From a virus (lineage: Duplodnaviria > Heunggongvirae > Uroviricota > Caudoviricetes): DNA of 64,000 nt. The stretch is taken from IMG/VR virus record IMGVR_UViG_2799113139_000004; one strand, written 5' to 3'. The position numbers and the translations under genes are program-made. The notes below the pieces were generated by a model, which saw only the letters and a program-made list of their open reading frames with translations, was not told the origin of the DNA and ran no database searches. Shown piece by piece: positions 9,391-57,159 of this stretch (its first letter is position 1; each line of letters starts with the position of its first letter).

Positions 9391-9425
9391 TGAGCCGCTG
9401 AAGGGTACCTCCTAGCCCTTCGGCA

Positions 9426-9488
9426 GGGGACGCCCCGCCTCTGCGACCAACTCCTACTCGGTCGCCAAGGGAAGAGGGGCGGGGCGTC
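9426..9488 (+). terminator. Large stem-loop downstream of 8914-9390 (possible terminator or regulatory hairpin)
   Basis: GGGGACGCCCCGCCTCT ... AGAGGGGCGGGGCGTC inverted repeat, about 16-bp arms and about 30-nt loop. No clear U-tract. Confidence 0.4.
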
Positions 9489-9569
9489 ATCCCAAACACG
9501 CTGACACACAACAACAAACGAACGAGCGGAGAGCATCTTGATTGCCGCTAACGGCAGGAGCATTCACCC

Positions 9570-9779
9570 GTGAGCGACCCGACAAAGGCTTGCGCTTGTG
9601 GCCACGACGAGGACACCCACGTGGCTGGATTCGGTCAGTGTCTCGGCTGCGTGCGGTGCCCCGACGTGCCACACAGCGCGAAGTCCGGTCACGTCTACGG
9701 CCGCTGCATATGCACCGGCTTCCAAGTCGATGACGAATCAGCCAGCTACGCAGAACTATTGAGAGGAATGCAAGGGTGA
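9570..9779 (+). CDS. Small Cys-rich (zinc-binding) protein
   Basis: GTG start; 8 Cys and several His in 69 aa (CACGHDEDTH ... CLGCVRCPD ... CICTGF). Confidence 0.45.
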   Translation: MSDPTKACACGHDEDTHVAGFGQCLGCVRCPDVPHSAKSGHVYGRCICTGFQVDDESASYAELLRGMQG

Positions 9780-11071
9780 GCGACTACGCCAGTTTCCTTG
9801 CGCGCAAGCAGCGAAAGCCCGCCAGGCGCGGCCCGAGTATCGAACAGATGGCGCTTCACCCGTCGCTGCACGAGTGGCAAGCACGCATCACCGAATGGGC
9901 GATAAGCACTCAGCGCGCGGCGATCTGGGCCGACACTGGTCTGGGCAAGACGCGCATGCAGATCGAGTGGGCGCGCATGTCCGGTAACTCGCCGCTGATC
10001 GTGGCACCGCTGGCAGTCTGCGCTCAGACGGTCGCTGAGGCCGAGAAGATCGGTGTCGAAGCGCGGTTCGTGCGCAACGGCGACGAGATCACCGGGCCGG
10101 GCATCATCTCTGTCACCAACTATGAGCGCGTCAGCTCAATGCCGGCATCCAAGATCGACGCGGTGGTGCTCGACGAATCCAGCATCTTGAAGCAATCGGA
10201 CGGCAAGACGAGAAACCTTCTCATCGAACACTTTCAGAACGTGCCAGCGCGTCTGGCCTGCTCGGCGACGCCGGCACCCAACGACCCCGAAGAGCTGACC
10301 AATCAGTCGGAGTATCTAGGGCGCATGGCGCGTAATCACATGCTGGCCGCGTACTTCGTCCACGACAAGGACGGATGGCGACTCAAAGGGCATGCGCGCG
10401 GTCCGATGATCGACTGGATGTCTTCGTGGGCGCTGGCCATCCGGCGGCCGTCAGACATCGGGGGCGACGATGCTGGATATGTGTTGCCAGGCTTGGAGAT
10501 CAAGCCAGAGCTGATACCCGCAGACATGTCCGGCGCGCTCGTTGGTCCCGGTCCACTCGGCGGTGTGACCGAGCGTGCGCGACTACGGCGAGAGACGCTG
10601 ACAGCTCGCGTCGCGCGTGCTGCTGAGCTGGTGGCCGCCGAACCCGATGAGCCCTGGCTTCTGTGGTGCGGCCTGAATGATGAGGCCAACGCACTGGCCG
10701 CGGCGATACCCGGCGCGGTCAACGTCCACGGCGCGATGAGCCCGGAAGAGAAGGCTGAGCTACTGCTTGGCTTCGCGGCGGGTGACTACCGCGTGCTGAT
10801 CACCAAGCCATCGATCGCGTCATTCGGAATGAACTTCCAGCACTGCGCACGCATGGCCTTCGTCGGCCTCGGCGACTCGTACGAGCAGTACTACCAGTCG
10901 ATTCGGCGCTGCTATCGGTACGGCCAGACGCGCGTGGTGCACGCCCATGTCGTGTTGTCCGAACTCGAAGCGGCCATTGCAGAGAACGTCATGCGCAAGG
11001 AACAGCAGGCGTCAGAGATCACCAGCGCACTCATCGAACGAGCAGCACTGAACGGAGCCGTGGCCGCATGA
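9776..11071 (+). CDS. SNF2/DEAD-like superfamily II DNA helicase
   Basis: Walker A (ADTGLGKT), DExx box (VVLDESS) and a C-terminal helicase domain (HGAMSPEEKAELL ... YRYGQT). Confidence 0.7.
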   Translation: MSDYASFLARKQRKPARRGPSIEQMALHPSLHEWQARITEWAISTQRAAIWADTGLGKTRMQIEWARMSGNSPLIVAPLAVCAQTVAEAEKIGVEARFVRNGDEITGPGIISVTNYERVSSMPASKIDAVVLDESSILKQSDGKTRNLLIEHFQNVPARLACSATPAPNDPEELTNQSEYLGRMARNHMLAAYFVHDKDGWRLKGHARGPMIDWMSSWALAIRRPSDIGGDDAGYVLPGLEIKPELIPADMSGALVGPGPLGGVTERARLRRETLTARVARAAELVAAEPDEPWLLWCGLNDEANALAAAIPGAVNVHGAMSPEEKAELLLGFAAGDYRVLITKPSIASFGMNFQHCARMAFVGLGDSYEQYYQSIRRCYRYGQTRVVHAHVVLSELEAAIAENVMRKEQQASEITSALIERAALNGAVAA

Positions 11072-12042
11072 TGGAGAATCTGGACGAGTATCGCGAGGAT
11101 GAGGCGCATGGGTCGAATTGGTCGCTGTACCTTGGCGACTCGTGCGAGCGGCTGGCCGAATTCGACACGGAAAGCATCGACTTGACGGTCTGCTCGCCAC
11201 CGTTCGACAGCCTGTACACCTACTCGCCGTCGATGCGTGACCTCGGCAACAGCAGCTCGCGCATCGAGTTCCTGGACCATTACCGCTTCATCGTCGAGCA
11301 TCAGCTACGCATCACCAAGCCGGGACGTAACGCGTGCGTTCACGTCCAGCAGATAGCGACGAAGAAGGCTGTAGACGGGTATGTCGGCCTGACCGACTTC
11401 CGCGGTGACGTGATCCGGCTGTTTCAGTCGGTCGGCTGGATCTACTTCGGCGAGGCGACCGTCTGGAAGAACCCGCAGGCGCAGAGCATTCGGACCAAGA
11501 GCCAGCAGCTCACCTTCACGTCCAAGAACCGCGACAGTGCGCGCATCAGGCCGGCGCTGGCCGACTACCTGCTGATCTTCAAGAAGCCCGGAGAGAACGC
11601 TGTACGCATCCCGCATGAGGTCAACGCGGGCGAGGTCACCAACGATGACTGGATCGAGTGGGCAGCGCCGATCTGGGAGGACCGGCACGACGGCGGCTGG
11701 CTGACCGAGGATGGCCACATCTGCCGGGTCTGGTACGGCATCCGCGAGACAGACACGCTCAACGTGCGCGTAGCGCGAGAGTCGGCCGACGAGCGCCACA
11801 TCTGCCCGCTACAGCTCGGATTCATCGACCGATGCGTCAGGCTCTACTCCAATCCCGGCGAAACGGTTCTGACGCCGTTCGCGGGCATCGGGTCGGAGCT
11901 GTACCAGTCGGTGAAGCTCGGCCGCCGCGCGATCGGCATCGAGCTGAAGCCGTCGTACTGGCAGACCGCAGTAGAGAACATGACGCGCCTCGATGGTGAA
12001 CTTGCAGCGTCGTCAACGCTTTTCGATGAGGCAACGTCATGA
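11068..12042 (+). CDS. DNA methyltransferase (beta-class N6-adenine or N4-cytosine)
   Basis: SPPF catalytic motif (DLTVCSPPFDSLY) precedes the C-terminal AdoMet motif FAGIGSE, the order typical of the beta class. Confidence 0.8.
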   Translation: MMENLDEYREDEAHGSNWSLYLGDSCERLAEFDTESIDLTVCSPPFDSLYTYSPSMRDLGNSSSRIEFLDHYRFIVEHQLRITKPGRNACVHVQQIATKKAVDGYVGLTDFRGDVIRLFQSVGWIYFGEATVWKNPQAQSIRTKSQQLTFTSKNRDSARIRPALADYLLIFKKPGENAVRIPHEVNAGEVTNDDWIEWAAPIWEDRHDGGWLTEDGHICRVWYGIRETDTLNVRVARESADERHICPLQLGFIDRCVRLYSNPGETVLTPFAGIGSELYQSVKLGRRAIGIELKPSYWQTAVENMTRLDGELAASSTLFDEATS

Positions 12043-12251
12043 GTGAGTTGACTAACCGTGTTCGTGAGGTCGCCCGAATGGTCATCGCGGACGCTGAAGA
12101 TGATGTGCAGAGATTCAACGGCAAGCGTCTGACCGGCGATCTAGTCGGTGAGATACAAGGCTGCACCAATGGTCTCATCTTCGGTCTGGCGAGCTGCATA
12201 GAGAATCTGGCAGACGAGATCGATCGCCTAGATCAACCGAAACAGCCATGA
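12039..12251 (+). CDS. Hypothetical protein
   Basis: 70-aa ORF with ATGA overlap. Confidence 0.4.
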   Translation: MSELTNRVREVARMVIADAEDDVQRFNGKRLTGDLVGEIQGCTNGLIFGLASCIENLADEIDRLDQPKQP

Positions 12252-12943
12252 CCATCGGATACTTCACCAGTTGCGCGGCATGCGGCGAGCTGTTGCGCAT
12301 CGAGCGTGACGACCAGCGCATTCACGACACCTGTGAGGAGCCGTTGCCGTCGCGCGCCGACGTGTTGCAAATGGAACTGCGCGCGTGCGTCTACATGGGT
12401 GATCAACAGAAGCTCGAAGCGGAGATCATCGCCGAACTCGACCAGATCGAGAGCCGACCACCGAACCTGGGGCTAGCGGCGGTCACGTACGCCACCGAAT
12501 ACGGCTGGCCAGTGTTCCCGCTGCTCCCAGGCGGCAAGAAGCCGGCCATCCCGAAGAGCGCTGGCGGCAATGGATTCAAAGACGCGACGACCGACGTCGA
12601 ACGCATCAAGAAGTTCTGGACCAAGAACCCGACGTGCAACATCGGCGTGCCGACCGGCATTCACTTCGACGTGATCGACGTAGACCCACCGAACGGCATG
12701 CTGTCGTATCTGGAGCTGGTAGGCGATGGTCTGCTGCCCGAGGTGCATGGACAGGCCAGGACGCCGCGTGGGCTGTTCCATCTGTTCATAGAGCCGACCG
12801 GCGACGGGAACTCGGCCGACATGAAGCCCGGCATCGACTACCGCGGAGCGGGCGGTTACGTCGTCGTCGCACCATCGATCGTCGGTGAGCAGCGGTATCG
12901 ATGGGCGGTCAAGCCCAGTCCGAAACTTAAACCAGTGGGGTGA
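12248..12943 (+). CDS. Bifunctional primase-polymerase (prim-pol) N-terminal domain protein
   Basis: GWPVFPLLPGGKKP ... NIGVPTG ... VIDVD motifs match the prim-pol domain; N-terminal Cys cluster. Confidence 0.6.
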   Translation: MTIGYFTSCAACGELLRIERDDQRIHDTCEEPLPSRADVLQMELRACVYMGDQQKLEAEIIAELDQIESRPPNLGLAAVTYATEYGWPVFPLLPGGKKPAIPKSAGGNGFKDATTDVERIKKFWTKNPTCNIGVPTGIHFDVIDVDPPNGMLSYLELVGDGLLPEVHGQARTPRGLFHLFIEPTGDGNSADMKPGIDYRGAGGYVVVAPSIVGEQRYRWAVKPSPKLKPVG

Positions 12944-13034
12944 TACACATCACCCAGTAGTTCATAGATGTAGTAGAGTGCTCTACTAGCCGAGCTTCGG
13001 CACATCACAACAATCCCAGCGGAAGAGGGACGAA
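12944..13034. promoter_or_regulatory. Regulatory region with palindromic operator TAGTAGAGTGCTCTACTA and GGTGAT..ATCACC inverted repeat
   Basis: The palindrome at 12971-12988 matches the consensus seen at 58577-58596 and 61535-61554. An A/C-rich leader plus SD lies upstream of 13035. Confidence 0.5.
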
Positions 13035-13352
13035 ATGAACAGACAGAACGAATGCACGGATCACGTCCACGTCTCTATCAAGGAGATCAGCGACGAGGTT
13101 CTTCTTGAGATCTGGCTCGACGGATTCGCGAGCGGCGCGATGTCGTTGATGGCGAATGCGATCGACGGTGATCCTGACGGTCCGACCGAAGAGCGTCAGC
13201 TTGAGCTAGCTCATGCGATGGTCGCGTCGCTCATGAACGACCCTGTGGCGGTAGCGACCACGCGCAAAAACATCTTCGCGCGCATGACTGTCGGCAATCT
13301 CGCTGCTGGCGTGACCAAGATCGACTCAGGCAAGAAGGTCAAGCAGTCATGA
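13035..13352 (+). CDS. Hypothetical protein
   Basis: Strong SD (ggaagagggacgaa ATG); 105 aa. Confidence 0.5.
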   Translation: MNRQNECTDHVHVSIKEISDEVLLEIWLDGFASGAMSLMANAIDGDPDGPTEERQLELAHAMVASLMNDPVAVATTRKNIFARMTVGNLAAGVTKIDSGKKVKQS

Positions 13353-16419: not shown

Positions 16420-16613
16420 TGATGACCGAAACCACGATCGAAACGGGCAAGGCACAGACGCTAGGCGAGATCGAAGATCTGCTCGCGAAGGCGTATCAGC
16501 TCGGAGGCAACCGCGATACCCGCTGGAGTGTGGTGAGCAAGGTATGTGGCGGATACGAATTCACGGGTGATGCCAAGGAGTTTCAGGCCATCAGCGTGAA
16601 GTTGACGAGCTGA
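16416..16613 (+). CDS. Hypothetical protein
   Basis: 65 aa; start overlaps the upstream stop. Confidence 0.4.
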   Translation: MMMTETTIETGKAQTLGEIEDLLAKAYQLGGNRDTRWSVVSKVCGGYEFTGDAKEFQAISVKLTS

Positions 16614-16698
16614 CTGCACGTCGGCGCACGCGCGGGGGTCAGTGCGCCGACGTGGCCCACAATGAGAGCAGTCGCAACACTGCCGAAGGGAATGCTTC

Positions 16699-16905
16699 GT
16701 GACGACGACCGACATACCCCAACATCAGATCTGCGGGCCGAAGTCGCTGATAGATCGCGTTATCGCCGGTGAAGAACTACTTGAGCTGACGCGCGAAGAG
16801 TTCGCTAATGCCGAAGGCGAATGGGTGGCAATCTCGGTGCCCGAGAAGGTCGCTCAGCGCTGGGCCGCTGTCGGCTCGCAGTCCGGCGAGCTATGGCCAG
16901 CGTAA
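16699..16905 (+). CDS. Hypothetical protein
   Basis: GTG start; 68 aa. Confidence 0.35.
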   Translation: MTTTDIPQHQICGPKSLIDRVIAGEELLELTREEFANAEGEWVAISVPEKVAQRWAAVGSQSGELWPA

Positions 16906-16908
16906 ACC

Positions 16909-18567
16909 GTGACGACGATGAGCGACGAGAACAACGACGACACACCTGACGATGCAGCCGAACCGGAAGACGCTGGCGATAACGTCATCTCATTCAAGGA
17001 GCGCTTGCGTCGCGCGGGGCATCTGAACACCCCGAAGCCCAATCCCGCTCCACCACCTAGACGTTTACCACCCGGCGCTGAGCTGCCGGGCGAAAGCCGT
17101 TACGGCCGGGTCGCTCTCGATGACGAGCTGACCATTCTTGCCAACACTCCCGAGGGTTCGCGGAATCAGCAGCTCAACACCAGCACGTTCAACCTCGCCG
17201 GTCTGGTGCGCCGCGGTGAACTCGACGAGCAGACCGTCATCAACGAGCTGATCAGCACCGCCCGCGGTATCGGGCTGGATGAATCCGAGATCATGCCGAC
17301 GATCAGATCGGCGTTCCGCGGCAGCGACCACAAGGTGGGGGCGCGCGTGGTGCCCGAGCGCGACGAAATCCCGCCCGCGTTCACGATCGATCCCAACGAG
17401 CTGCCGACGCAGCACACCGAGCCCGACGATGACACGAACGAGTTCGACAGCGACGACCAGGCCGACGCGGATCACCTGGCGCTGCACCGTACGCGCGTTG
17501 TGCGCGCCGCTTATGAGCTTCGCGTGTCAGACGAAGGCCGGGCGCTCTACGCGGCCCAGCAGGCTCACGAGCTGGGCCAGATCGCACCCGAGCCGGTATC
17601 GCTGACCGACTTCTTGAGCATTCCCGATGAGGATGCGGTCTACCGGATAGGCGAGCTGCTGCCCATCGGCGGCCGAGCGCTGCTGGCGGCCCAGTACAAG
17701 GCCGGCAAGACAACGATGATGGCCAACCTGCTGCGCTCGCTGGCCGATGGTGTGTCATTCCTGGGCCGGTTCCCGACGTCGCAGGTCGAGCGCGTGACGG
17801 TGATCGATACCGAACTCGATGAGCGCATGTTCCGCAGATGGCTACGTGCGCAGGGGATTCAGGACACTGACCGGGTTCAGGTGCTCCCGATGAAGGGGCA
17901 CCTCGCGACGTTCAACATTCTGGACGCCACCACGCGCGCCCAGTGGGCCGAGAAGGTGCGCGGCAGCGACTTCATCATTCTGGACTGCTTACGGCCATGT
18001 CTGGACGCGCTGAACCTGTCCGAGGACAAGGACGCCGGTAAGTACCTGGTCGCCTGGGATGCGTTCGTGGCCGAGGCCGACGCGTCGGAGTCGATCGTGG
18101 TGCATCACATGGGACATAGCGCCGAGCGCAGCCGCGGGGACTCACGCCTACTGGACTGGCCCGACGTTCTCTGGAAGATCGTGCGCGAGCAGGTCGAGGA
18201 AGGGGAGGACCCCGCAGCCGATGGGGGCAAGCGCTTCTTCTCCGCGCACGGGCGAGATGTGGCGGTCGCTGAAGGTTTGCTGGAGTACCAGCCCGAGACG
18301 GGCGGGCTCGTCTTGCTGGAGGGTGGCCGGGCTGCCACGAAAGCGCGCGACGGGCTACCGGCGATCGTGCAGATCTTGTCCGATCCTGACTACATCGGCG
18401 GGCTTGGGACGCGCCAGTTGACGACCAAACTGACCGAGACGGGCATGAGTTTCCATGCCGCCCGGAGGGTCATTCAGACCGCCATCGATGAGTCGGTCAT
18501 CTACGTCGGAGAGGGTGCCCGAAATGCGCGAATCCTATCCCTGAACCCATCGGCGAAGCCGCTATGA
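16909..18567 (+). CDS. DNA primase C-terminal (PriCT-like) plus AAA/RecA-like P-loop NTPase; candidate replicative primase-helicase or initiator
   Basis: Walker A (AQYKAGKTTMMANLL), Walker B-like (FIILDCL), and an N-terminal region resembling PriCT_1 (RYGRVALDDELTILANTPEGSRNQQLNTSTFNLAGLV). Confidence 0.55.
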   Translation: MTTMSDENNDDTPDDAAEPEDAGDNVISFKERLRRAGHLNTPKPNPAPPPRRLPPGAELPGESRYGRVALDDELTILANTPEGSRNQQLNTSTFNLAGLVRRGELDEQTVINELISTARGIGLDESEIMPTIRSAFRGSDHKVGARVVPERDEIPPAFTIDPNELPTQHTEPDDDTNEFDSDDQADADHLALHRTRVVRAAYELRVSDEGRALYAAQQAHELGQIAPEPVSLTDFLSIPDEDAVYRIGELLPIGGRALLAAQYKAGKTTMMANLLRSLADGVSFLGRFPTSQVERVTVIDTELDERMFRRWLRAQGIQDTDRVQVLPMKGHLATFNILDATTRAQWAEKVRGSDFIILDCLRPCLDALNLSEDKDAGKYLVAWDAFVAEADASESIVVHHMGHSAERSRGDSRLLDWPDVLWKIVREQVEEGEDPAADGGKRFFSAHGRDVAVAEGLLEYQPETGGLVLLEGGRAATKARDGLPAIVQILSDPDYIGGLGTRQLTTKLTETGMSFHAARRVIQTAIDESVIYVGEGARNARILSLNPSAKPL

Positions 18568-18892: not shown

Positions 18893-19351
18893 ATGCCAGA
18901 AGCGATGAAGCAACCGGTGAGCGATTCCTCACCACCACCGTTCGTCTCGTTCTTCGTGCCGGGGAAGCCCGCCCCGCAGGGTTCGAAGAAGCACGTCGGC
19001 CACGGCCGCATGATCGAAAGTTCGAAGGAACTTGGATCGTGGCGATCAGACGTCGCAGTGTTCGCGCAACAGGCCATGGCTGGTCGCTCGATCTACACCG
19101 CGACTGGATTAGCTGTCGAGCTGACTTTCATCGTGCCGCGTCCAGCGTCGTCACCGAAGACGTACACCAAGCCAGCCATCAAGCGGCCAGACCTGGACAA
19201 ACTGGAGCGCGCAGTTCTGGACGCACTGACTCACGTCGTTTTCGATGACGACTCGACAGTCATCGATCTGCGCGGCCGGAAGCGCATCGCTGAGATCGGT
19301 GAGACGCCGGGTGTTTCGGTCTTCGTGACGCCTACGCAGGTGGTGGCGTGA
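18893..19351 (+). CDS. RusA-like Holliday junction resolvase
   Basis: FVPGKPAPQGSKKH and VFDDDSTVIDL match RusA family motifs. Confidence 0.7.
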   Translation: MPEAMKQPVSDSSPPPFVSFFVPGKPAPQGSKKHVGHGRMIESSKELGSWRSDVAVFAQQAMAGRSIYTATGLAVELTFIVPRPASSPKTYTKPAIKRPDLDKLERAVLDALTHVVFDDDSTVIDLRGRKRIAEIGETPGVSVFVTPTQVVA

Positions 19352-19458
19352 TGGAACCTGATCCGATACTGCAAGCACTCATCCTCGGGCTGATCTTCGG
19401 TGTACTCATCGGCTTCGTCCTTGGTGCGGCGCTCTGCTCACAGGTGGTCGCCTCATGA
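19351..19458 (+). CDS. Small membrane peptide (35 aa)
   Basis: ATG overlaps the RusA stop; single TM (ILQALILGLIFGVLIGFVLGAAL). Confidence 0.35.
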   Translation: MEPDPILQALILGLIFGVLIGFVLGAALCSQVVAS

Positions 19459-19601
19459 TCGGCGTGACGTTCGGGGCGCAAGAGCCTGGCTGGTGCCATC
19501 TCTGTGGCAAGACGTACCCGCGGGATGCTCGGGTGACGTACCGCAGCCACGACGAAGAACCGGTGCATCTGGAATGCGCGGAGCTGATCGATGGCCGGTA
19601 G
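19455..19601 (+). CDS. Small zinc-ribbon-like protein (48 aa)
   Basis: ATGA overlap; CHLCGK ... HLEC. Confidence 0.35.
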   Translation: MIGVTFGAQEPGWCHLCGKTYPRDARVTYRSHDEEPVHLECAELIDGR

Positions 19602-19836
19602 ACCGTTTCAGGCGAAGTACGAAGGTCACTGCTTCGAGTGCGGCGAGATGATCAGCGTTGGCGAAGGTGTGATGTTCGACGATGACGGCGATCTCTGCCA
19701 CGAAGGCTGCTATACGGATTCGACGTCATTCGATCCCACTGGCGACGATGAGGTGAAGCGCGTCAAGTTCGTGCCGGTGGCCGAAGAGAAGCCTTGCGAG
19801 AAGTGCTATCTCGTTCACGCTGGGGACTGCTTCTGA
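19591..19836 (+). CDS. Small Cys-rich zinc-binding protein
   Basis: CFECGE ... CHEGC ... CEKC. Confidence 0.45.
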   Translation: MAGRPFQAKYEGHCFECGEMISVGEGVMFDDDGDLCHEGCYTDSTSFDPTGDDEVKRVKFVPVAEEKPCEKCYLVHAGDCF

Positions 19837-19838
19837 CG

Positions 19839-20198
19839 ATGACCACGGATCAAGAGGTGTTGCAGCAGCTCGACTTCACACCCGAACCGATGCGGTGCGA
19901 GTGCAGAACGTGCGGTACCTCGGAGGTTGGACACAAAGGTGAATGCGATCGAAATGCTCTGTACAGCACTGAGATACACGCGATCGACCATTGCAACGAG
20001 GCTGGTCTGACGCAGAGCGGAGGCGTCTCGCGACTGCTCTGCCATCGGTGCGCGATGGCCTGGCGCGCACACGTCACTTTGGTCGCCAAAGGCAATCAGA
20101 AGCTCTATGACAGAGAAGGTTTCATCATCAAGTGCGTCACCTGTCAGCGTCCATTGGTCAAGGTGAAAGACCTGCTGAGCCTGGAGGTGCTGAAGTGA
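19839..20198 (+). CDS. Cys-rich zinc-binding protein
   Basis: ATG at 19839 overlaps the upstream stop; multiple CxxC pairs. Confidence 0.45.
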   Translation: MTTDQEVLQQLDFTPEPMRCECRTCGTSEVGHKGECDRNALYSTEIHAIDHCNEAGLTQSGGVSRLLCHRCAMAWRAHVTLVAKGNQKLYDREGFIIKCVTCQRPLVKVKDLLSLEVLK

Positions 20199-21103
20199 CC
20201 GAGATCAGACGATGCAAGGCTGGCCGCTTGTGCGACGGGTACGAGGTGGTCGGTGGCCAGAGGCGACCGGCGCAGCTCATGCACGACCATCACCTTTGCG
20301 AACCCTGCATGGTCCGCGTGCGAAAGATCATGCGCCGACTGCCAAACGAGTGGTGCAAGCTCAAGCTGACCATCGGCGAGAAGCGTTCGCGCGGTGCGCA
20401 AGAAGAGGTCAGTCGTCGGCCCAAGCCTGGTTCCAAGGTGCTGATCAACGTCGATACCGCCGAGCTGATGGGCGAGATCGTACTCATCTGCGACGAGGCC
20501 ACCCGCGGCGTTCTGAAGTCTATTGAGCGCGAGCATCGTCGCGGCTACCCGGCGCTTGGCCGGTCGACCGCCGACCGCTACGACTTCGCGATCGTGCTCA
20601 AGGCTGTCGATGTCGTCACGCATGACATCGGTGTGCTGGCAAGCAGTTCCGAGGGCGTGATGATCTGCCTGAAGCTGCTCGATCTGGCTTATCGCATCCG
20701 CCGGCACCTTGGCGAGACGCTGTACCGCGAGCGTCAGCACTTGCCCTGCCCGTCGTGCGGCGAGCTGGCTTTGGTGAAAGAAGTTCAGGACAAGCGCGGC
20801 CGGGTGAGTTCGGACGATCAGGAGGACATCACCCCCGAGGTCATCAGATGCCTGGCGTGCAACGGCGGCCCGAATCAGAACGGCACATGGACCGAGACCG
20901 AGTACCGCTGGCTGGCGAAGATGGTTCTGTCCGAGCGAGAGGAGCACGAGATGCTGAAATGGCTACTTGCAGAGGCGCAGTGGAAGGGTGACGTGAACGC
21001 CTGGCTGGCCGCCGAACGTCTGTGGCTTCTGGATCTTGCGCGCGCTACCACCGGCATGCCGATGGAAGACTTCATCGCGGCGCTCGAAAGATCAGTCACA
21101 TGA
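20195..21103 (+). CDS. Hypothetical protein with CxxC motifs (possible DNA-binding regulator)
   Basis: GTG at 20195 overlaps the upstream stop; CDGY ... CEPC and CPSCG ... CLAC motifs. Confidence 0.45.
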   Translation: MTEIRRCKAGRLCDGYEVVGGQRRPAQLMHDHHLCEPCMVRVRKIMRRLPNEWCKLKLTIGEKRSRGAQEEVSRRPKPGSKVLINVDTAELMGEIVLICDEATRGVLKSIEREHRRGYPALGRSTADRYDFAIVLKAVDVVTHDIGVLASSSEGVMICLKLLDLAYRIRRHLGETLYRERQHLPCPSCGELALVKEVQDKRGRVSSDDQEDITPEVIRCLACNGGPNQNGTWTETEYRWLAKMVLSEREEHEMLKWLLAEAQWKGDVNAWLAAERLWLLDLARATTGMPMEDFIAALERSVT

Positions 21104-21477
21104 CGACCACTCATGTTCACGTCTACCGGGAGTCGCGCGAGGCTCGCAACAAGCGCATAGCCATCACAGCGATAGACCTGCTGACGCGCATCGTCGCCGG
21201 CGACATTAGCGATCCGGCAGCAGCGCTGGCCAGGTTCCATCAGGAGCGCATCAACGAGCACGTGTACTGGACTCAGCCGAGCACCATGCCCTACGACCCT
21301 GATCAGTGGTTGACCGCCAATGAGATGGCCGAGATCGCCGATGTCGAACCAGGGACCGTGCAGAAGTGGAACCACCGCGGCTATATCACCAGCTCAGAAG
21401 CGCACGACGGTACGAAGCTCTACAACGTCGGAGAGGTCAACCGGCTGCTGGCAAAGCGTCAGCGGCGACAGGACTGA
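21100..21477 (+). CDS. HTH DNA-binding domain protein (excisionase/MerR-like)
   Basis: LTANEMAEIADVEPGTVQKWNHRGYI is an HTH similar to Xis-type domains. Confidence 0.5.
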   Translation: MTTTHVHVYRESREARNKRIAITAIDLLTRIVAGDISDPAAALARFHQERINEHVYWTQPSTMPYDPDQWLTANEMAEIADVEPGTVQKWNHRGYITSSEAHDGTKLYNVGEVNRLLAKRQRRQD

Positions 21478-21525
21478 ACTACACTTGACACTGCACCTCT
21501 TCCGCTGGTGCAGTTGTTGTGATGG

Positions 21526-21560
21526 CGAAGGCCCTCCGTGCAAACGGGGGGCCTTCGTTC
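21526..21560 (+). terminator. Stem-loop terminator candidate
   Basis: GAAGGCCC-loop-GGGCCTTC hairpin downstream of 21477. Confidence 0.4.
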
Positions 21561-21685
21561 GTCTGTGGCTCAACCGAGGCGCGCCGTTAACGTCTTCAAT
21601 AAACCAGTGGTACTAGACACGTCGTACACTGGGCTACTGACAGATCCATCTCAAAATCAGGTCCAGGCCCCTGCGGGAGGCGATT

Positions 21686-23110
21686 TTGGCTGCATCAGTG
21701 CTGATAGATGGGGTCGAGTTCATTCCGTCGTACAGATCGGAACGGCCGCGGGTTGGTGTAGCCATCACGACACGCAATCGCCCCGACGTTCTCAAGACGA
21801 CGCTCGAACATATTCGACAGTTCACGCCTGACGCACTGGTGGTTGTCGTAGACGACGCCTCAACACCACCAGCACCCGAGGCGACCTACCGATTCAGCGA
21901 ACGCGCGGGCGTCGCCGCAGCCAAGAACAAGTGCATCGAGCTGCTGATGGACGCCGGTTGTACCGAGCTGTTCCTACTCGATGACGACTGCTACCCGATC
22001 ACCCAAGGCTGGGTCGATCAGTACATCGACCATCCCGAGCCGCATCTCTGCTATCTCTTCAAGACGCTGGACGCGAACGGCAAGCCAGTCGGCACGCCGG
22101 CCACCATCTACGAGGACAGTCGAACCAAGGCGTTCGATCACCCGATGGGCTGTCTGCTCTACATGAACCGCAGCGTGATCGAGCGGTGCGGTGGGATGCG
22201 AACAGTCTTCGGCGTGTGGGGCCATGAGCACGTCGAGTACAGCATTCGGATCAACAACAGCGGCCTGACCACCAATGCTTTCCAGGACGTCGCCTGGTCG
22301 TATCAGTACATCTACTCGATCGATGAGCACTGGTACAAGCATCCTGAGTTCAAACGAAGCGTCAGCGATCGCGAACGAAGTGCGCAGATCGCACGCAACG
22401 ACGAGATCCTTGACGGGATGCGCGAGAGCACAGTCGGTTTCGTGCCCTACCGACAGCTCGGCAACGAGGTCATCACCACCATGTTGACGAGAGTGGTTGA
22501 CCCGCAGCGCAAGAATGCGGCGAAGCTGACGACGAATGACTTCGCAGCCTGGCGCAAGTCGATCAAGGGTGCCAAGTCCGTCATTCTGACTGATGCGCCG
22601 TGTGAAAGCGATGGCGGTGAGTTTGCGAGCGTTGAGCACGGCCTGAATCCGTATCTCCAACGCTGGATCGTCACCTATCACCACCTGCGCGAGCATGAGA
22701 GCGCATGGGTATGGGTCACTGACGGAACTGACGTCGAGATGCTGAGCCAACCATGGCTGATCATGAAGCCGGGCACGCTGTATGTCGGTTACGAGCCAAC
22801 GGTTCTGGACATTCCATGGATGCGGCAGAACCATCCGCCGTATCAGCAGTGGATAACAGAGAACGGCGATCTTCAACTACTCAACGCTGGCGTGGTCGGC
22901 GGCGATCACGCGACGGTTCTCGAGTTCAGCTCCGACATGGTGCGCGAGATCTTTCGCGTCGGACCTGGCGCAGTGAAGGGTGACATGGCCGCGTTCAACT
23001 ACGTTGCGCGGTCGCCCAAGTGGCGCGACAGGATCGTATGGGGTAGTCGCTGGCTGACGACGTTCAAGGCCAACGAACGCAACGACTGGAGCGTCTGGAA
23101 GCACAAATGA
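21686..23110 (+). CDS. Glycosyltransferase (GT-A fold, family 2-like)
   Basis: VGVAITTRNRPD, VVVDDAS and the DxD motif LLDDDCYP. Confidence 0.7.
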   Translation: MAASVLIDGVEFIPSYRSERPRVGVAITTRNRPDVLKTTLEHIRQFTPDALVVVVDDASTPPAPEATYRFSERAGVAAAKNKCIELLMDAGCTELFLLDDDCYPITQGWVDQYIDHPEPHLCYLFKTLDANGKPVGTPATIYEDSRTKAFDHPMGCLLYMNRSVIERCGGMRTVFGVWGHEHVEYSIRINNSGLTTNAFQDVAWSYQYIYSIDEHWYKHPEFKRSVSDRERSAQIARNDEILDGMRESTVGFVPYRQLGNEVITTMLTRVVDPQRKNAAKLTTNDFAAWRKSIKGAKSVILTDAPCESDGGEFASVEHGLNPYLQRWIVTYHHLREHESAWVWVTDGTDVEMLSQPWLIMKPGTLYVGYEPTVLDIPWMRQNHPPYQQWITENGDLQLLNAGVVGGDHATVLEFSSDMVREIFRVGPGAVKGDMAAFNYVARSPKWRDRIVWGSRWLTTFKANERNDWSVWKHK

Positions 23111-23790
23111 CACTGAACCTTGACGCCATCGCGCAGAAGCACGACACGGACAAGTCATCGCTGCATCACAACTACACAGCGATCTACGAACCTCTGCTGA
23201 AGCCGTTGCGCAACAAGCCGATCACCCTCCTAGGGCTGGGGTGGGGTGGCCATGAAGACCCAAACGCTGGTGGCAACAGTGCCCGCACCCGGGCCGAATA
23301 CTTCGGCCACCCCGAATCTCAGATCATCGTTGTAGAGCTGGAAGACAAGAACTTTCAGCCAGAAGGCGACGAAGACCGCATCAAGCTATGGCAAGGCTCG
23401 CAAGATGATCAGGAGATGATCGATCGCCTGGCCGCCATCTATGGCCCCTTCGATGTCATCATCGACGATGCGAGCCATCTGTCATCGAAGACCATTCGGT
23501 CATTCGAGCTGCTGTTCAGACACCTCAAGTCGGGTGGCCTGTACTTCATCGAGGACACTCACGCGTCCTACCACGAGCACTACTACGGTTCGATGGAAGC
23601 CAACGAGAATCCAGAAGCACGCCGACGCGGCGGTGACTTCACGATGATGCAGTTCTTTCAGCGGCTCACCGATGAGGTCAACTTCAAGGGACGCACAGAC
23701 CTCGATCTGTTCCCCGCCAAGTACGCGTGGGGCGTGCCGGTTGAGTCAATGTCGTTCTACTTCAACATGGTTGTGGCGACCCGGCGATGA
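23107..23790 (+). CDS. SAM-dependent O-methyltransferase (TylF/MycF-like)
   Basis: VIIDDASH motif and overall TylF-like layout. Confidence 0.6.
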   Translation: MTLNLDAIAQKHDTDKSSLHHNYTAIYEPLLKPLRNKPITLLGLGWGGHEDPNAGGNSARTRAEYFGHPESQIIVVELEDKNFQPEGDEDRIKLWQGSQDDQEMIDRLAAIYGPFDVIIDDASHLSSKTIRSFELLFRHLKSGGLYFIEDTHASYHEHYYGSMEANENPEARRRGGDFTMMQFFQRLTDEVNFKGRTDLDLFPAKYAWGVPVESMSFYFNMVVATRR

Positions 23791-24500
23791 ATATCAACAT
23801 CGGAATCGTCGGTCACGTTGATCGTGTGGAGGAAACGCAAGCACTCGCTGAGCAGGTCAACGCATCAACGGTTGCCATTGACGATGGCTCACTTGGCTGC
23901 GAGGCCAACCATCAGCGCGTGTGGCAGATGCTCACCATTGGCGACTCTGACTGGTCGGTCGTACTCGAAGACGACGCGCAACCTGTCGAAGGATTTCGGC
24001 AGCAGCTGGAATCGGCATTGACGGTCGCGCCAACGTCGGTCGTTTCGCTGTATCTGGGCAAGGGTAGACCAGAGTTCGCGCAGACCGAGCTACGCAAGTT
24101 CGCCAAGGCGTACCCACCCGAAAAAGACTATGCACCATGTTGGTTCGTCTCCGAAGTGCTGCTTCACGCGGTCGGTATCGCGATGCGTACCGAGCTGATA
24201 CCCGAGATGCTGGAACACCTGCGCCAACCGCCGGCGGTGTTTCTGGCGCAGGATGAAGCGATAGGGCACTGGGCCAGGCATAGGGGCCACTCCATCGGCT
24301 ACACCTGGCCAAGTCTGGTGAATCATGCTGATACGCCAACGGTTATCGATGAGCACCCAGACGGGGTGCCCCGAGGGCCGAGGGTCATAGACGGACAGAT
24401 AGTGGTCACCCCTCGCCGAGGGTGGCAGGTGGGTACGCGCGACACATGGACTCATCACCACGTCGAGCTGGCGCTCAGGAGACCGCATGTACATCGCTGA
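23787..24500 (+). CDS. Glycosyltransferase (second, GT-A-like)
   Basis: VVLEDDAQP DxD-like motif in a Rossmann-like N-terminus. Confidence 0.5.
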   Translation: MNINIGIVGHVDRVEETQALAEQVNASTVAIDDGSLGCEANHQRVWQMLTIGDSDWSVVLEDDAQPVEGFRQQLESALTVAPTSVVSLYLGKGRPEFAQTELRKFAKAYPPEKDYAPCWFVSEVLLHAVGIAMRTELIPEMLEHLRQPPAVFLAQDEAIGHWARHRGHSIGYTWPSLVNHADTPTVIDEHPDGVPRGPRVIDGQIVVTPRRGWQVGTRDTWTHHHVELALRRPHVHR

Positions 24501-24792
24501 TCCTTACCCATCAGATCGTGGTGGCTCTACGGATTGGGACGTCGCAGGTGAGCAGCGCGTGTACATCACCGCAGATCATGAGGTGCTGATCGATGGGGTA
24601 CGCGTGCCGGGTGTCATCGCAGAGGACGGGGTGACCGTGCATCGCGGGAGTACGGACACCTGCACACTCAACACACTCACGCTCACGCTTCTCGTGTCGG
24701 ACTTGGAGATTGACGACGCAGTGATCAACGACGTCACTGTCATAGAGCCATTGACCCTCGACATCAACGACACATCAACCGAAGAGAGCTGA
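24487..24792 (+). CDS. Hypothetical protein
   Basis: 101 aa, Thr/Leu-rich C-terminus. Confidence 0.4.
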   Translation: MYIADPYPSDRGGSTDWDVAGEQRVYITADHEVLIDGVRVPGVIAEDGVTVHRGSTDTCTLNTLTLTLLVSDLEIDDAVINDVTVIEPLTLDINDTSTEES

Positions 24793-24795
24793 CCG

Positions 24796-25104
24796 GTGGT
24801 GTGGTCGGGTGACGGCCGCGGCACAGGAACCGACGTACCTGCGTCTGTGAGACGCGCTGTACGCATCAGAGACGGCGATCAGTGTCAGTTGCGCTACGAC
24901 GGCTGCACGGGCGACTACGAAGAGCTGGACCACATAGAAGGCGTGGCTGAGCGTGGTGTCGATCGACGCCGCACGTTGACCGTCGATGAGCTGCAATGCG
25001 CTTGCCGTTGGTGCCACAAGCAGAAGACGGCAAAGCAGGCAGCCCGAGGTAGGTCGCGCAATCGATGGCGGGAGTCCGAGCCACACCCTGGTCGCGGTCG
25101 CTGA
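24796..25104 (+). CDS. HNH endonuclease
   Basis: DHIEGVAERGVD ... CACRWCHKQK matches the HNH motif. Its position just upstream of the terminase is typical. Confidence 0.7.
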   Translation: MVWSGDGRGTGTDVPASVRRAVRIRDGDQCQLRYDGCTGDYEELDHIEGVAERGVDRRRTLTVDELQCACRWCHKQKTAKQAARGRSRNRWRESEPHPGRGR

Positions 25105-25371
25105 CCAGCAAACAGGGATGGGGAGGCAACCCCCTGGGGGTACCCAAGGTCCCCGGTTGGCATAGGCGCTAGGACTCCGCCTACCTCTGGGGTTTTCCGA
25201 TCGGGCCGAAATGGCCTTTGAGCTGCGGAAATGACTGTTTCACTGAGTGTTTCACCACGTCGAAACGGTCGCGCTGGTCGAGCCCCTGAGCTGCGACAAG
25301 CCCGAATCGTCACCCAGGACGCAACGTCCGCTACTGCCCGCAACGGTGCAGCTAACTAGATCGGAGCAATC
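25105..25371. promoter_or_regulatory. Putative cos/packaging region containing GACTGTTTCAC / GTGTTTCAC / GAAACGGTC repeats
   Basis: Non-coding region between the HNH and small terminase genes. The repeats are related to the 18587-18745 array. Confidence 0.4.
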
Positions 25372-36568: not shown

Positions 36569-37150
36569 ATGGCCAATTCCAAGAACATTTGGGCCGCAAC
36601 ACTTCACGAGGACGGCGGTAGCTTCTACCGTGCACCTCTGGGGACTCCGCTGCCCGATGACGCTCTCGATGTCCTTGACGCTGCATTCAAGGACCACGGG
36701 TGGATGGGCGACGACGGCTTCAAGGTAAGCCCGAAGCGTGACACCACCAAGCACAAGGCATTTGGTGGCAGCACCGTGAAGACCACTCAGGACAACTACG
36801 AGTGCACCGTCACGGCCACCATCTACGAGCAGAACATCGTGACGCTGAAGACCGTCTTCGGTGACAGCAATGTCACGGTGGACTACTCCAGTGGTCACGC
36901 CAAGTACCGCGTCGAGTGGTCCGATGCTCAGCTGCCTCGGTCCTCGTTCATTCAGCGGTACATCGACGGTCGCAAGACCGCGCTGAACGTGATCGAAGAG
37001 GGCCAGATCGTTGAGATCGAGGACATCGAGTATGTCCACGACCAACTGGTCAAGTTCACGGTTCACATCGACGTCTACAAGCCGGAATCCGGCAATCCGG
37101 GCGTCTACTCGCTGATCGACGATCCCGACGCCACTGGTACCGGCTCGTAG
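36569..37150 (+). CDS. Major tail protein
   Basis: 193 aa with strong SD; followed by the tail chaperone and tape measure. Confidence 0.7.
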   Translation: MANSKNIWAATLHEDGGSFYRAPLGTPLPDDALDVLDAAFKDHGWMGDDGFKVSPKRDTTKHKAFGGSTVKTTQDNYECTVTATIYEQNIVTLKTVFGDSNVTVDYSSGHAKYRVEWSDAQLPRSSFIQRYIDGRKTALNVIEEGQIVEIEDIEYVHDQLVKFTVHIDVYKPESGNPGVYSLIDDPDATGTGS

Positions 37151-56940: not shown

Positions 56941-57159
56941 TCAGTCGGCGCTCGGTGTGTAGTTGTCCATCCAGCCATCCTGGACACCCTCGGCGTACGC
57001 GTGGGCCGCCTCTGGCCAGCCGTCATGCCTCTTGGGTCCAGGATCAGCGGCCCAGCGATGGGGGATAGACACCGCACCAGGGAACTTGTCTCGATACAGC
57101 GCCCTCTTCTTGCCGACCTCGTACCCCTCGACGTACGGCTCACTTTGCTTGTTAGTCAT
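56941..57159 (-). CDS. Hypothetical protein
   Basis: 72 aa; start overlaps the stop of the upstream ADP-ribosylglycohydrolase gene on the minus strand. Confidence 0.4.
   Translation of the reverse strand: MTNKQSEPYVEGYEVGKKRALYRDKFPGAVSIPHRWAADPGPKRHDGWPEAAHAYAEGVQDGWMDNYTPSAD

What the first reader, a model, noticed from the sequence alone, without database searches (positions are those of the whole stretch)
21686..24500. Three-gene glycosylation cluster (glycosyltransferase, O-methyltransferase, glycosyltransferase) upstream of the packaging genes
Two GT-A-like glycosyltransferases (DxD motifs LLDDDCYP and VLEDDAQP) flank a TylF-like SAM O-methyltransferase (VIIDDASH). The cluster is preceded by a possible TTGACA promoter and hairpins at 21486-21560. 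Similar clusters glycosylate capsid and tail proteins in some mycobacteriophages and alter antibody recognition. The targets and sugar in this phage are unknown.
Basis: partly seen in the sequence, partly recalled or inferred. Interest (0 to 1): 0.55.

Follow-up and report, generated by a model that had tools for sequence, protein, structure and literature searches.

The report
Prophage virion glycosylation gene cluster
A Mycobacterium abscessus prophage carries a three-gene operon (three sugar-transferase domains plus a sugar O-methyltransferase) that most likely decorates the last serine of its capsid and tail-tube proteins with a small methylated glycan; this is a known mycobacteriophage trait, so it is a new example, not a new kind of system.

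Summary
The window is Mycobacterium phage prophiFSQJ01-1, a cluster MabR prophage of M. abscessus. The three overlapping ORFs and the quoted motifs are real.

- **ORF3** (GenBank: "hypothetical") is a GT25-type glycosyltransferase, 49% identical to Che8 gp110. A secondary source names gp110 as essential for Che8 capsid glycosylation.
- **ORF1** is a fusion of two GT-A domains: an N-terminal GT2/GT7-like domain and a C-terminal GT6/GT8-like domain. The cluster therefore has three transferase domains, not two.
- **ORF2** is a MycE/TylE-type metal-dependent sugar O-methyltransferase, not TylF-type. Its metal ligands and catalytic His are conserved.

Three GT domains plus one O-MT matches the domain count of the Che8 and Corndog glycosylation cassettes, and the position before HNH and terminase matches Che8.

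Only 2 of 95 annotated proteins in the window end in Gly-Ser. They are the major capsid protein (…TGAGS) and the major tail protein (…TGTGS), like the Che8 and Corndog substrates. Homologous capsid and tail proteins of the GT-less phages TM4 and Cuco lack this ending, but HK97 (no GT) has it.

The TTGACA promoter is not supported; the hairpins are real and look like a terminator.

Verdict: interpretation supported, a new member of a known kind, moderate-to-low interest. No virions were tested.

The parts
21487..21563 (+). Two GC-rich hairpins (21487-21518 and 21521-21563) in the 220-nt gap between the HTH gene (gp45) and the cluster. They are probably a terminator or operon boundary. The TTGACA at 21485-21490 has no -10 partner.
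   Evidence: Fold energy is -58.5 kcal/mol with z -5.4. The second stem is conserved in McProf with a different loop, and TTGACA is not conserved there. The promoter scan is negative here.
21686..23110 (+). gp46, a bifunctional glycosyltransferase of 474 aa from TTG 21686 (470 aa from the annotated GTG 21698). Residues ~1-250 form a GT2/GT7-like GT-A domain with the DDD motif. Residues ~250-470 form a second GT-A domain most like retaining GT6/GT8 enzymes, with conserved TDGTDVE and LNAGVVGG motifs.
23107..23790 (+). gp47, a SAM- and metal-dependent sugar O-methyltransferase of 227 aa. It corresponds to the MycE/TylE catalytic domain only.
   Evidence: PDB MycE 3ssm E 2.5e-27 and TylE 8ia9 E 1e-20. 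D121, H124, E149 and D150 align with the MycE metal ligands and catalytic His. Pfam Methyltransf_24 scores 23.5 bits, below its cutoff, and there is no TylF hit. Homologues occur only in the five MabR prophages, in cluster V phages and in Omega.
23787..24500 (+). gp48, a GT25-type glycosyltransferase of 237 aa and the orthologue of Che8 gp110 and Corndog gp38. It is the probable initiating protein O-glycosyltransferase. GenBank annotates it only as 'hypothetical protein'.
   Evidence: Pfam PF01755 scores 24.9 bits against a cutoff of 24, and PHROG 854 gives E 1e-71. It is 49% identical to Che8 gp110, E 1e-66. 735 phage records carry a homologue.
34733..34747 (+). The last five codons (T-G-A-G-S) of the major capsid protein gene (33857-34750). 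This is the predicted glycan acceptor, a C-terminal Ser preceded by Gly.
   Evidence: Translation. It is one of only two Gly-Ser endings among 95 proteins. The alignment to the GT-less cluster A capsid (Cuco) stops at residue 291, and Cuco ends ...APAEEED.
37133..37147 (+). The last five codons (T-G-T-G-S) of the major tail protein gene (36569-37150). This is the predicted second acceptor.
   Evidence: Translation and the 95-protein tally. The homologous tail protein of GT-less TM4 ends ...DDGVISV, whereas GT-bearing CCUG48898T-2 ends ...DDGRIAGS.

Best explanation
gp46-gp47-gp48 form a translationally coupled operon that is probably expressed during lytic growth and builds a short O-linked glycan on the phage's own virion.

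**Inferred pathway.** The order of steps is inferred, not shown.
1. The GT25-type enzyme gp48 (orthologue of Che8 gp110) transfers the first hexose from a host nucleotide-sugar. The acceptor is the C-terminal serine of the major capsid protein (…TGAGS-COOH) and of the major tail-tube protein (…TGTGS-COOH).
2. The two GT-A domains of gp46 add further sugars. One domain is GT2/GT7-like and the other is GT6/GT8-like, so the two linkages probably differ in anomeric configuration.
3. The MycE/TylE-type methyltransferase gp47 O-methylates a sugar hydroxyl.

The phage encodes no nucleotide-sugar synthesis genes, so the donors are host metabolites.

**Expected consequence.** The result would be hundreds of copies of a methylated oligosaccharide over head and tail. 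In Che8 this reduces antibody binding and neutralisation.

**What is shown and what is inferred.** Shown here are gene structure, folds, catalytic residues, orthology, synteny and the acceptor-like C-termini. Inferred are the order of steps, the sugar identity, the expression timing and the modification itself.
For: - **Identity.** The window is 100% identical to prophiFSQJ01-1.
- **Orthology.** gp48 is 49% identical to Che8 gp110, E 1e-66. Both gp110 and Corndog gp38 are GT25 hits, and PMC12363180 calls them essential for capsid glycosylation.
- **Domain content.**
  - Che8: gp108 is a GT2 plus TylF O-MT fusion, gp109 is GT2-like, gp110 is GT25.
  - Corndog: gp35 is an O-MT and gp36-38 are GTs (PMC11600133).
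  - This window: gp46 has two GT-A domains, gp47 is the O-MT, gp48 is GT25.
- **Synteny.** The GT cluster, small ORF, HNH and terminase are in the same order as in Che8 and in M. abscessus prophage CCUG48898T-2.
- **Acceptor motif within the window.** Only the major capsid and major tail proteins end in Gly-Ser, 2 of 95 annotated proteins.
- **Acceptor motif in other GT25-bearing actinophages (capsid / tail).** 13 of 14 proteins end in Ser and 12 of 14 in Gly-Ser.
  - Che8: TGS / DGS.
  - Corndog: VGS / GDS.
  - McProf: PGS / SGS.
  - Job42: DGS / DGS.
  - CCUG48898T-2: AGS / AGS.
  - Syleon: TSA / AGS.
- **GT-less controls.** Cuco, TM4 and Giles give 0 of 6 proteins ending in Ser.
- **Matched pair.** The Job42 and TM4 capsids are 73% identical up to …VVP/…VAP. 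Job42 then ends DGS and TM4 ends AA.
- **Methyltransferase.** It matches sugar 2'-O-methyltransferases, with metal ligands and catalytic His conserved.
- **Purifying selection.** The MabR relatives are about 76% identical at the DNA level, yet the MT is 79-81% identical and GT1 is 76% identical to its nearest non-self database homologue at the protein level.
- **Expression.** McProf lysogen RNA-seq lists gp1-3, gp48-50, gp56 and the attR-side genes as expressed, not the GT genes gp43-45 (PMC8191103).
Against: - No virion of any MabR prophage has been examined. McProf gave no plaques or particles (PMC8191103), so the modification may never be realised.
- A terminal Gly-Ser is not sufficient evidence. 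HK97, with no GT, has a capsid ending …FSSGS and a tail protein ending …TLTIS.
- The rule is not universal. The Syleon capsid ends …TSA, and the capsid of Omega, which has GTs plus a homologous MT, ends …TFA.
- gp46 and gp47 are not homologues of Che8 gp108/gp109 by BLASTP, so the glycan is probably different.
- The primary paper (Freeman et al. 2023) could not be read here. What it shows is taken from citing papers and from memory.
- Absence of GT genes was checked by reading the full annotation only for TM4 and HK97, not for Cuco or Giles.
Confidence: 0.8

Rival explanations
1. Lysogenic conversion. The enzymes modify a host cell-envelope glycoconjugate, for example by glycosylating or O-methylating glycopeptidolipid sugars of M. 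abscessus. This would change the surface or block superinfection, and virion proteins would not be the target.
For: The host makes O-methylated deoxyhexose-containing GPLs (general knowledge). MycE and TylE act on deoxyhexoses attached to small molecules. JGI names for some GT1 homologues read 'glycosyltransferase involved in cell wall biosynthesis'. ENT47670 shows that phages do carry Gtr-type conversion genes, although at a different locus.
Against: The cluster lies at the end of the lytic early region, immediately before HNH and terminase. It is not in the attR-proximal region that is expressed in lysogeny. The McProf orthologues are not among the genes reported as expressed in lysogens. 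In ENT47670, Omega and Corndog the homologous genes sit inside the capsid/tail gene block. The gp48 orthologue is tied to capsid glycosylation. The capsid and tail C-terminal motif is unexplained under this model.
Confidence: 0.07
2. DNA hypermodification. The transferases glucosylate modified bases in phage DNA, as in T4 hydroxymethylcytosine glucosylation or TET-associated GTs, to evade restriction.
For: There are weak ORF1 hits to Pfam TAGT (21.5 bits) and to PHROG 842 beta-glucosyl-HMC alpha-glucosyltransferase (E 1.7e-5). The phage carries two DNA methylases and a MazG.
Against: The TAGT hit is below its cutoff of 27.5 bits and covers only the generic nucleotide-binding stretch. Ten larger early proteins were scanned and none is a hydroxymethylase or a TET/JBP enzyme; gp6 and gp22 are ordinary C5 and N6/N4 DNA methylases. 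A sugar O-methyltransferase has no role in the known DNA glucosylation systems. The close orthology is to a capsid-glycosylation enzyme.
Confidence: 0.03
3. Relic cassette. The genes are intact, but the prophage is defective or the cassette is not used. In that case nothing is glycosylated in practice.
For: McProf released no detectable particles or attP DNA. MabR phages are known only as prophages.
Against: All three ORFs are full length with catalytic residues intact. They are conserved in all five MabR genomes, with protein identity at or above DNA identity. The acceptor-like capsid and tail C-termini are co-conserved in McProf.
Confidence: 0.1

Closest known systems
Che8 gp108-gp110 virion glycosylation cassette (cluster F1 mycobacteriophage; Freeman et al. 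2023, Cell Host Microbe)
   Same: The GT25-type enzyme is orthologous (gp48 against gp110, 49% identity). The position before a small ORF, HNH and terminase is the same. The total content is the same, three GT domains plus one metal-dependent sugar O-MT domain. [quoted passage not shown]
   Different: The other two GT domains are fused in one 470-aa protein that is not homologous to gp108 or gp109 by BLASTP. The O-MT is a free-standing MycE/TylE-type protein, not a TylF-type domain fused to a GT. The host is M. abscessus and the phage is known only as a prophage.
Job42-type cluster F1 pair (474-aa GT plus GT25-type GT)
   Same: gp46 is 44-46% identical over its full length to this large GT, and gp48 is 46-50% identical to the small one. 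Both lie at the genome end before the terminase genes. The capsid and tail proteins end DGS.
   Different: The Job42 type has no methyltransferase, and two small ORFs lie between its GTs.
Corndog gp35-gp38 (cluster O: O-methyltransferase plus three glycosyltransferases)
   Same: It has a separate O-MT gene plus three GT activities, one of them GT25-type (gp38). It is reported to modify capsid and tail tube proteins. The substrates end VGS and GDS.
   Different: The cassette sits inside the head gene block, between the portal and capsid genes. The MT is TylF-type. The three GTs are separate proteins.
MycE / TylE macrolide sugar 2'-O-methyltransferases (PDB 3ssm, 8ia9)
   Same: The catalytic domain aligns at E 2.5e-27 and 1e-20, with the metal-binding Asp/Glu/Asp and the catalytic His conserved (residue roles recalled from Akey et al. 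2011).
   Different: The N-terminal auxiliary domain is missing: the phage protein is 227 aa and aligns to chain positions 184-339 of 419. The presumed substrate is a protein-linked glycan, not a macrolide deoxysugar.
PBCV-1 A64R and mimivirus R699/R655 (giant-virus capsid and fibril glycosyltransferases)
   Different: The similarity is at fold level only, at 11-16% identity. These are eukaryotic-virus systems with different glycans and acceptor sites.

Membership tests
Mycobacteriophage virion O-glycosylation cassette (Che8/Corndog type) | Presence of a gp110/gp38-like GT25-type glycosyltransferase | tested here: met
   gp48 against Che8 gp110: 49% identity, E 1e-66. Pfam GT25 hits are found in gp48, gp110 and gp38.
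Mycobacteriophage virion O-glycosylation cassette (Che8/Corndog type) | Additional GT-A glycosyltransferase domains in the same operon | tested here: met
Mycobacteriophage virion O-glycosylation cassette (Che8/Corndog type) | Sugar O-methyltransferase domain in the cassette | tested here: met
   gp47 matches MycE/TylE. It belongs to a different subfamily from the TylF-type MT of Che8 gp108 and Corndog gp35, so this is a non-orthologous equivalent.
Mycobacteriophage virion O-glycosylation cassette (Che8/Corndog type) | Capsid and tail-tube subunits carry the C-terminal acceptor (terminal Ser, usually Gly-Ser) | tested here: met
   …TGAGS and …TGTGS are the only 2 of 95 proteins ending in GS. 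The motif itself is my inference from Che8 and Corndog sequences. HK97 shows that it is not sufficient.
Mycobacteriophage virion O-glycosylation cassette (Che8/Corndog type) | Expressed in lytic growth and not in lysogeny | tested here: inconclusive
   Evidence is indirect only. The McProf orthologues are absent from the published list of lysogenically expressed genes. No lytic-phase data exist.
Mycobacteriophage virion O-glycosylation cassette (Che8/Corndog type) | Glycan physically present on virion proteins and lost on deletion of the GTs | not testable with these tools
   This needs virions, glycostain and mass spectrometry.
CAZy GT25 / Pfam PF01755 | Score at or above the Pfam gathering threshold, with the DxD region | tested here: met
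   24.9 bits against a cutoff of 24.0. Only a 54-residue stretch around LEDDA is matched. The match is marginal but shared with gp110 (32.3 bits) and gp38 (24.5 bits).
MycE/TylE-type metal-dependent sugar O-methyltransferases | Catalytic domain homology with conserved metal ligands and catalytic base | tested here: met
   E 2.5e-27. D121, H124, E149 and D150 align to the MycE DDxxH and ED motifs.
MycE/TylE-type metal-dependent sugar O-methyltransferases | N-terminal auxiliary (oligomerisation) domain | tested here: not met
   The phage protein aligns only to chain positions 184-339 of 419, and residue 5 of the query already aligns to position 184.
   gp47 gives no PF05711 hit at E <= 0.1. Che8 gp108 and Corndog gp35 do hit it, at 39.3 and 48.7 bits.
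Phage DNA glucosylation (T4 a/b-GT, TET-associated GT) | Match above threshold, plus a base-hydroxymethylating or oxidising enzyme in the genome | tested here: not met
   TAGT scores 21.5 bits, below its cutoff of 27.5. No hydroxymethylase or TET enzyme was found among the ten early proteins scanned.
Anti-phage defence systems (PADLOC) | Significant match to a defence-system component | tested here: not met
   The only hit is an 18-bit partial match of the MT to mad2.

The most novel reading that the evidence does not exclude
The conserved pair of a two-domain GT and a GT25-type GT, together with a C-terminal …G-S-COOH tag on the capsid and tail-tube subunits, may be a portable 'tag-and-glycosylate' module.

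On this reading the module is not confined to actinophages. The same pair, at 34-40% identity, sits next to the structural or packaging genes of two enterobacterial phages.
- Cronobacter phage ENT47670: capsid-like protein ends …EATS and tail protein ends …EPSS.
- HK97-like E. coli phage ECP1: capsid ends …SSGS and tail protein ends …ASGS.

It is also present in jumbo Klebsiella and Serratia phages. If so, virion O-glycosylation would occur in phages of Gram-negative bacteria, and a short terminal tag would be enough to direct it.

For the window itself, the MycE/TylE-type MT would give a methylated glycan distinct from that of Che8.
Probability: 0.3. Interest if true: 0.6.

Novelty: new member of a known kind. 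Interest (0 to 1): 0.35.

Why it matters
Virion glycosylation shields mycobacteriophages from antibodies. Neutralising antibodies are a practical limit on phage therapy of M. abscessus.

This finding shows that a cluster of M. abscessus prophages carries a complete cassette, though a rearranged one. Two GT domains are fused, and the O-methyltransferase belongs to a different family. The finding also supplies the predicted acceptor sites.

Three practical results follow:
- It upgrades the GenBank annotation: gp48 is 'hypothetical' in all MabR records read.
- It gives a simple sequence test for likely substrates, a terminal Gly-Ser on both the capsid and the tail tube protein.
- It points to a testable extension to enterobacterial phages.

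It does not reveal a new kind of system.

Tried and rejected
- **Primary paper.** Freeman et al. 2023 could not be opened by PMC id or DOI. A search for its details in other papers gave only secondary statements.
- **TTGACA promoter.** Rejected. There is no -10 partner, the scan gives no hit, and it is not conserved in McProf. A conserved TAnnnT at 21625-21630 and a conserved 35-nt block at 21637-21670 were noticed but not established as a promoter.
- **Direct homology of gp46/gp47 to Che8 gp108/gp109 and Corndog gp35.** None by BLASTP.
- **DNA-glucosylation and defence-system readings.** Rejected.
- **NCBIfam.** It adds nothing specific.
- **Terminal Ser or Gly-Ser as a sufficient predictor.** Rejected because of HK97. 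The capsids of Omega and Syleon also break the rule.
- **Python analysis of fetched loci.** Most locus files never appeared in /data, so C-termini were read with the translate tool. The sample is therefore small.
- **gp49 (24487-24792).** It has no informative match and no similarity to Che8 gp111. It is left unassigned.
Full report
**Identity of the window**

Region 21400-24900 is 100% identical to Mycobacterium phage prophiFSQJ01-1 (BK061312.1). This is a cluster MabR prophage of Mycobacteroides abscessus, and window coordinate = record coordinate minus 1847. The region is about 76% identical to three other MabR prophages, including McProf of M. chelonae; a fourth, prophiFVLQ01-1, carries the same gene cluster.

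GenBank annotates the three genes as gp46 glycosyltransferase, gp47 methyltransferase and gp48 hypothetical protein. The paper describing cluster MabR does not mention glycosylation at all.

**Observation**

The three ORFs exist as described: 21686/21698-23110, 23107-23790 and 23787-24500. The 4-nt overlaps at both junctions are typical of a translationally coupled operon. All three quoted motifs are present.

The genes sit after a 220-nt gap that follows the last early-region gene, an HTH protein. Downstream come a 101-aa ORF, the HNH endonuclease, TerS, TerL and the portal gene.

The gap holds two strong hairpins (MFE -58.5 kcal/mol, z -5.4).
- The stem of the larger hairpin is conserved in McProf while its loop differs. 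That is the behaviour of a terminator-like element.
- The TTGACA hexamer at 21485-21490 has no -10 partner, is missed by the promoter scan, and is not conserved in McProf. I do not accept it as a promoter.
The homologue alignment also has about three residues before the conserved V-x-I-D-G.

**What the three proteins are**

*gp48* reaches the Pfam GT25 threshold (24.9 against 24.0 bits) and matches PHROG 854 at E 1e-71. It is 49% identical over its whole length to Che8 gp110 (E 1e-66). Che8 gp110 and Corndog gp38 are also GT25 hits. PMC12363180 describes them as the two glycosyltransferases essential for capsid glycosylation.

*gp47* matches the catalytic domains of MycE (3ssm, E 2.5e-27) and TylE (8ia9, E 1e-20). 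Both are Mg-dependent 2'-O-methyltransferases of macrolide deoxysugars.
- The DDxxH and ED positions are conserved as D121, H124, E149 and D150. I recall these as the MycE metal ligands and catalytic base.
- It does not hit the TylF profile, whereas the methyltransferase domains of Che8 gp108 and Corndog gp35 do.
- Close homologues occur only in the five MabR prophages. More distant ones occur in cluster V phages and in Omega, where the gene follows a GT gene directly after the capsid gene.

*gp46* belongs to a well-conserved family of about 470 aa. At least 291 proteins match at E <= 1e-5, among them 44-46% identical proteins of most cluster F1 phages and 38-40% identical ones in enterobacterial phages.
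- An AF2 model built from 61 homologues is confident (pLDDT 93.6).
- The N-terminal half gives weak GT2/GT7 sequence hits.
- The C-terminal half (residues ~250-470) has no sequence hit in Pfam or PDB, even as a profile.
- Invariant D342 and D345 (TDGTDVE) and N396/G398/G401 (LNAGVVGG) fit a DxD site and the GT8-like NxGV motif (the motif reading is my own).
- gp46 is therefore a bifunctional enzyme, and the cluster has three transferase domains plus one O-methyltransferase.

**Comparison with the characterised systems**

| Phage | Cassette content | Source |
|---|---|---|
| Che8 | gp108 (GT2 domain fused to a TylF-type O-MT), gp109 (GT2-like), gp110 (GT25) | |
| Corndog | gp35 (TylF-type O-MT), gp36, gp37, gp38 (GT25) | |
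| This window | gp46 (two GT-A domains), gp47 (MycE/TylE-type O-MT), gp48 (GT25) | |

- All three systems thus have three GT domains and one sugar O-MT, assembled from partly non-homologous parts. gp46 and gp47 show no BLASTP similarity to gp108, gp109 or gp35.
- The position is also shared. In Che8, the order 108-110, gp111, HNH gp112 at the right end is followed across cos by the terminase genes.
- M. abscessus prophage CCUG48898T-2 has a GT cluster in the same place.

**The predicted substrates**

The major capsid protein ends …ITGANTGAGS and the major tail protein ends …DDPDATGTGS. Of the 95 annotated proteins in the window, exactly two end in Gly-Ser, and they are these two. Twelve proteins end in Ser.

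C-termini in phages that carry a GT25-type gene:

| Phage | Capsid ends | Tail tube ends |
|---|---|---|
| Che8 | …NKTGS | …YSDGS |
| Corndog | …PLVGS | …IKGDS |
| McProf | …AAPGS | …TGSGS |
| Job42 | …VPDGS | …YSDGS |
| CCUG48898T-2 | …NRAGS | …RIAGS |
| Gordonia phage Syleon | …GDTSA | …FAAGS |

C-termini in phages without such a gene:

| Phage | Capsid ends | Tail tube ends |
|---|---|---|
| Cuco | …PAEEED | …EKLFR |
| TM4 | …VAPAA | …DGVISV |
| Giles | …GIVTP | …QQTAA |

- Counting the window as well, 13 of 14 proteins in GT25-bearing actinophages end in Ser, against 0 of 6 in the GT-less ones. By my own arithmetic the one-sided Fisher p is about 2e-4, and the genomes are not independent.
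- The matched pairs are the most telling evidence.
  - The Job42 and TM4 capsids are 73% identical to …VVP/…VAP. Job42 then ends DGS and TM4 ends AA.
  - The tail proteins of TM4, CCUG48898T-2 and this window are homologous (30-31% identity). They end …DDGVISV, …DDGRIAGS and …DDPDATGTGS.
  - The MabR capsid aligns to cluster A capsids only up to residue about 291 of 297.
- TM4's full annotation contains no glycosyltransferase. I did not verify this for Cuco or Giles.

**Caveats on the motif**

- HK97, which has no GT gene, has a capsid ending …KGTFSSGS and a tail protein ending …TLTIS. The ending is therefore at most necessary, not sufficient.
- The capsids of Omega (…APTFA) and Syleon (…DTSA) do not end in Ser although those phages have GTs.
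- That the terminal Ser is the attachment site is my inference. It rests on these sequences and on the published statement, recalled from the abstract of Freeman et al. 2023, that the glycans are on the C-termini of capsid and tail tube subunits. I could not read that paper.

**Alternatives**

*Host-envelope modification (lysogenic conversion)* is disfavoured for three reasons.
- The cluster lies in the lytic gene block, not in the attR-proximal region expressed in lysogeny.
- The McProf orthologues gp43-45 are absent from the published list of lysogenically expressed genes.
- Homologous genes are embedded among head and tail genes in Corndog, Omega and ENT47670.

*DNA glucosylation* rests only on sub-threshold generic GT-A hits. 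The genome has no hydroxymethylase or TET-like enzyme among the proteins scanned.

*A defence role* has no support.

*A relic cassette* is possible, because McProf yields no particles. However, the genes are intact and conserved, with protein identity at or above DNA identity. The acceptor-like termini are also co-conserved in McProf.

**Mechanism proposed**

1. gp48 initiates on the terminal Ser of gp58 and gp64, using a host nucleotide-sugar.
2. The two domains of gp46 extend the glycan with two further sugars of probably different anomeric configuration.
3. gp47 methylates a sugar hydroxyl.

The order of steps and the sugars involved are inferred. The role of gp48 as initiator rests on the reported essentiality of its Che8 orthologue.

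**Verdict**

This is a new, rearranged member of the known mycobacteriophage virion-glycosylation systems. What this analysis adds:
- a functional assignment for gp48;
- the two-domain nature of gp46;
- the MycE/TylE-type methyltransferase;
- explicit predicted acceptor sites.

The most novel lead is outside the window. The same GT pair and Ser-terminal capsid and tail proteins occur in the enterobacterial phages ENT47670 and ECP1.

Noticed in passing
L010 (Cronobacter phage ENT47670, NC_019927) 39577-42817; L014 (E. coli phage ECP1, KY979108) 9282-11874, 16578-17735, 19277-19747: Homologues of the two-domain GT (38-40% identity), and in ENT47670 also of the GT25-type GT (34%), occur in enterobacterial phages next to the tail or packaging genes. 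In ECP1 a GT25-type homologue was not confirmed. [quoted passage not shown] This suggests virion glycosylation outside actinophages. However, GT-less HK97 has the same capsid ending.
   Followed up: partly
L014 (ECP1) whole annotation table: The product names in the ECP1 GenBank record appear shifted by one gene. For example, 'portal protein' is on a 1515-nt ORF the same length as HK97 terminase large subunit, and 'head-tail adaptor' is on the 1158-nt HK97 gp5-like capsid gene.
   Followed up: no
window 21625-21670: A TAnnnT hexamer (TACACT, against TATCAT in McProf) and a 35-nt block, CTGACAGATCCATCTCAAAATCAGGTCCAGGC, are conserved between prophiFSQJ01-1 and McProf just upstream of the cluster. 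The surrounding spacer has diverged. This may be the real promoter or 5'-UTR element of the late operon.
   Followed up: partly
window 29146-32658 (+) and 57159-58181 (-): The phage encodes a 1170-aa minor-capsid/ADP-ribosyltransferase fusion protein in the head gene block. It also encodes a leftward ADP-ribosyl glycohydrolase in the lysogeny-expressed region. These may form a toxin/antidote-like or virion-delivered effector pair.
   Followed up: no
window 24487-24792 (+): The 101-aa ORF (gp49) overlaps the end of gp48 and precedes the HNH gene. It has only unknown-function PHROG hits and no similarity to the Che8 ORF in the same position (gp111). Whether it belongs to the glycosylation operon is unknown.
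   Followed up: partly
L005 (McProf) 19834-21437 compared with window 25105-25371: McProf has three leftward genes (gp48-50, two of them membrane proteins, expressed in lysogeny) inserted between HNH and TerS. prophiFSQJ01-1 has only a 267-nt gap at that position.
   Followed up: no
L011 (Omega, NC_004688) 9877-13248 and 16696-17424: In cluster J phage Omega, a 461-aa GT and a homologue of the window's methyltransferase (31% identity) directly follow the capsid gene, and a further GT lies about 3.4 kb downstream. Its capsid ends …TFA and its putative tail tube protein ends …IGLS. If Omega is glycosylated, the acceptor rule differs.
   Followed up: partly
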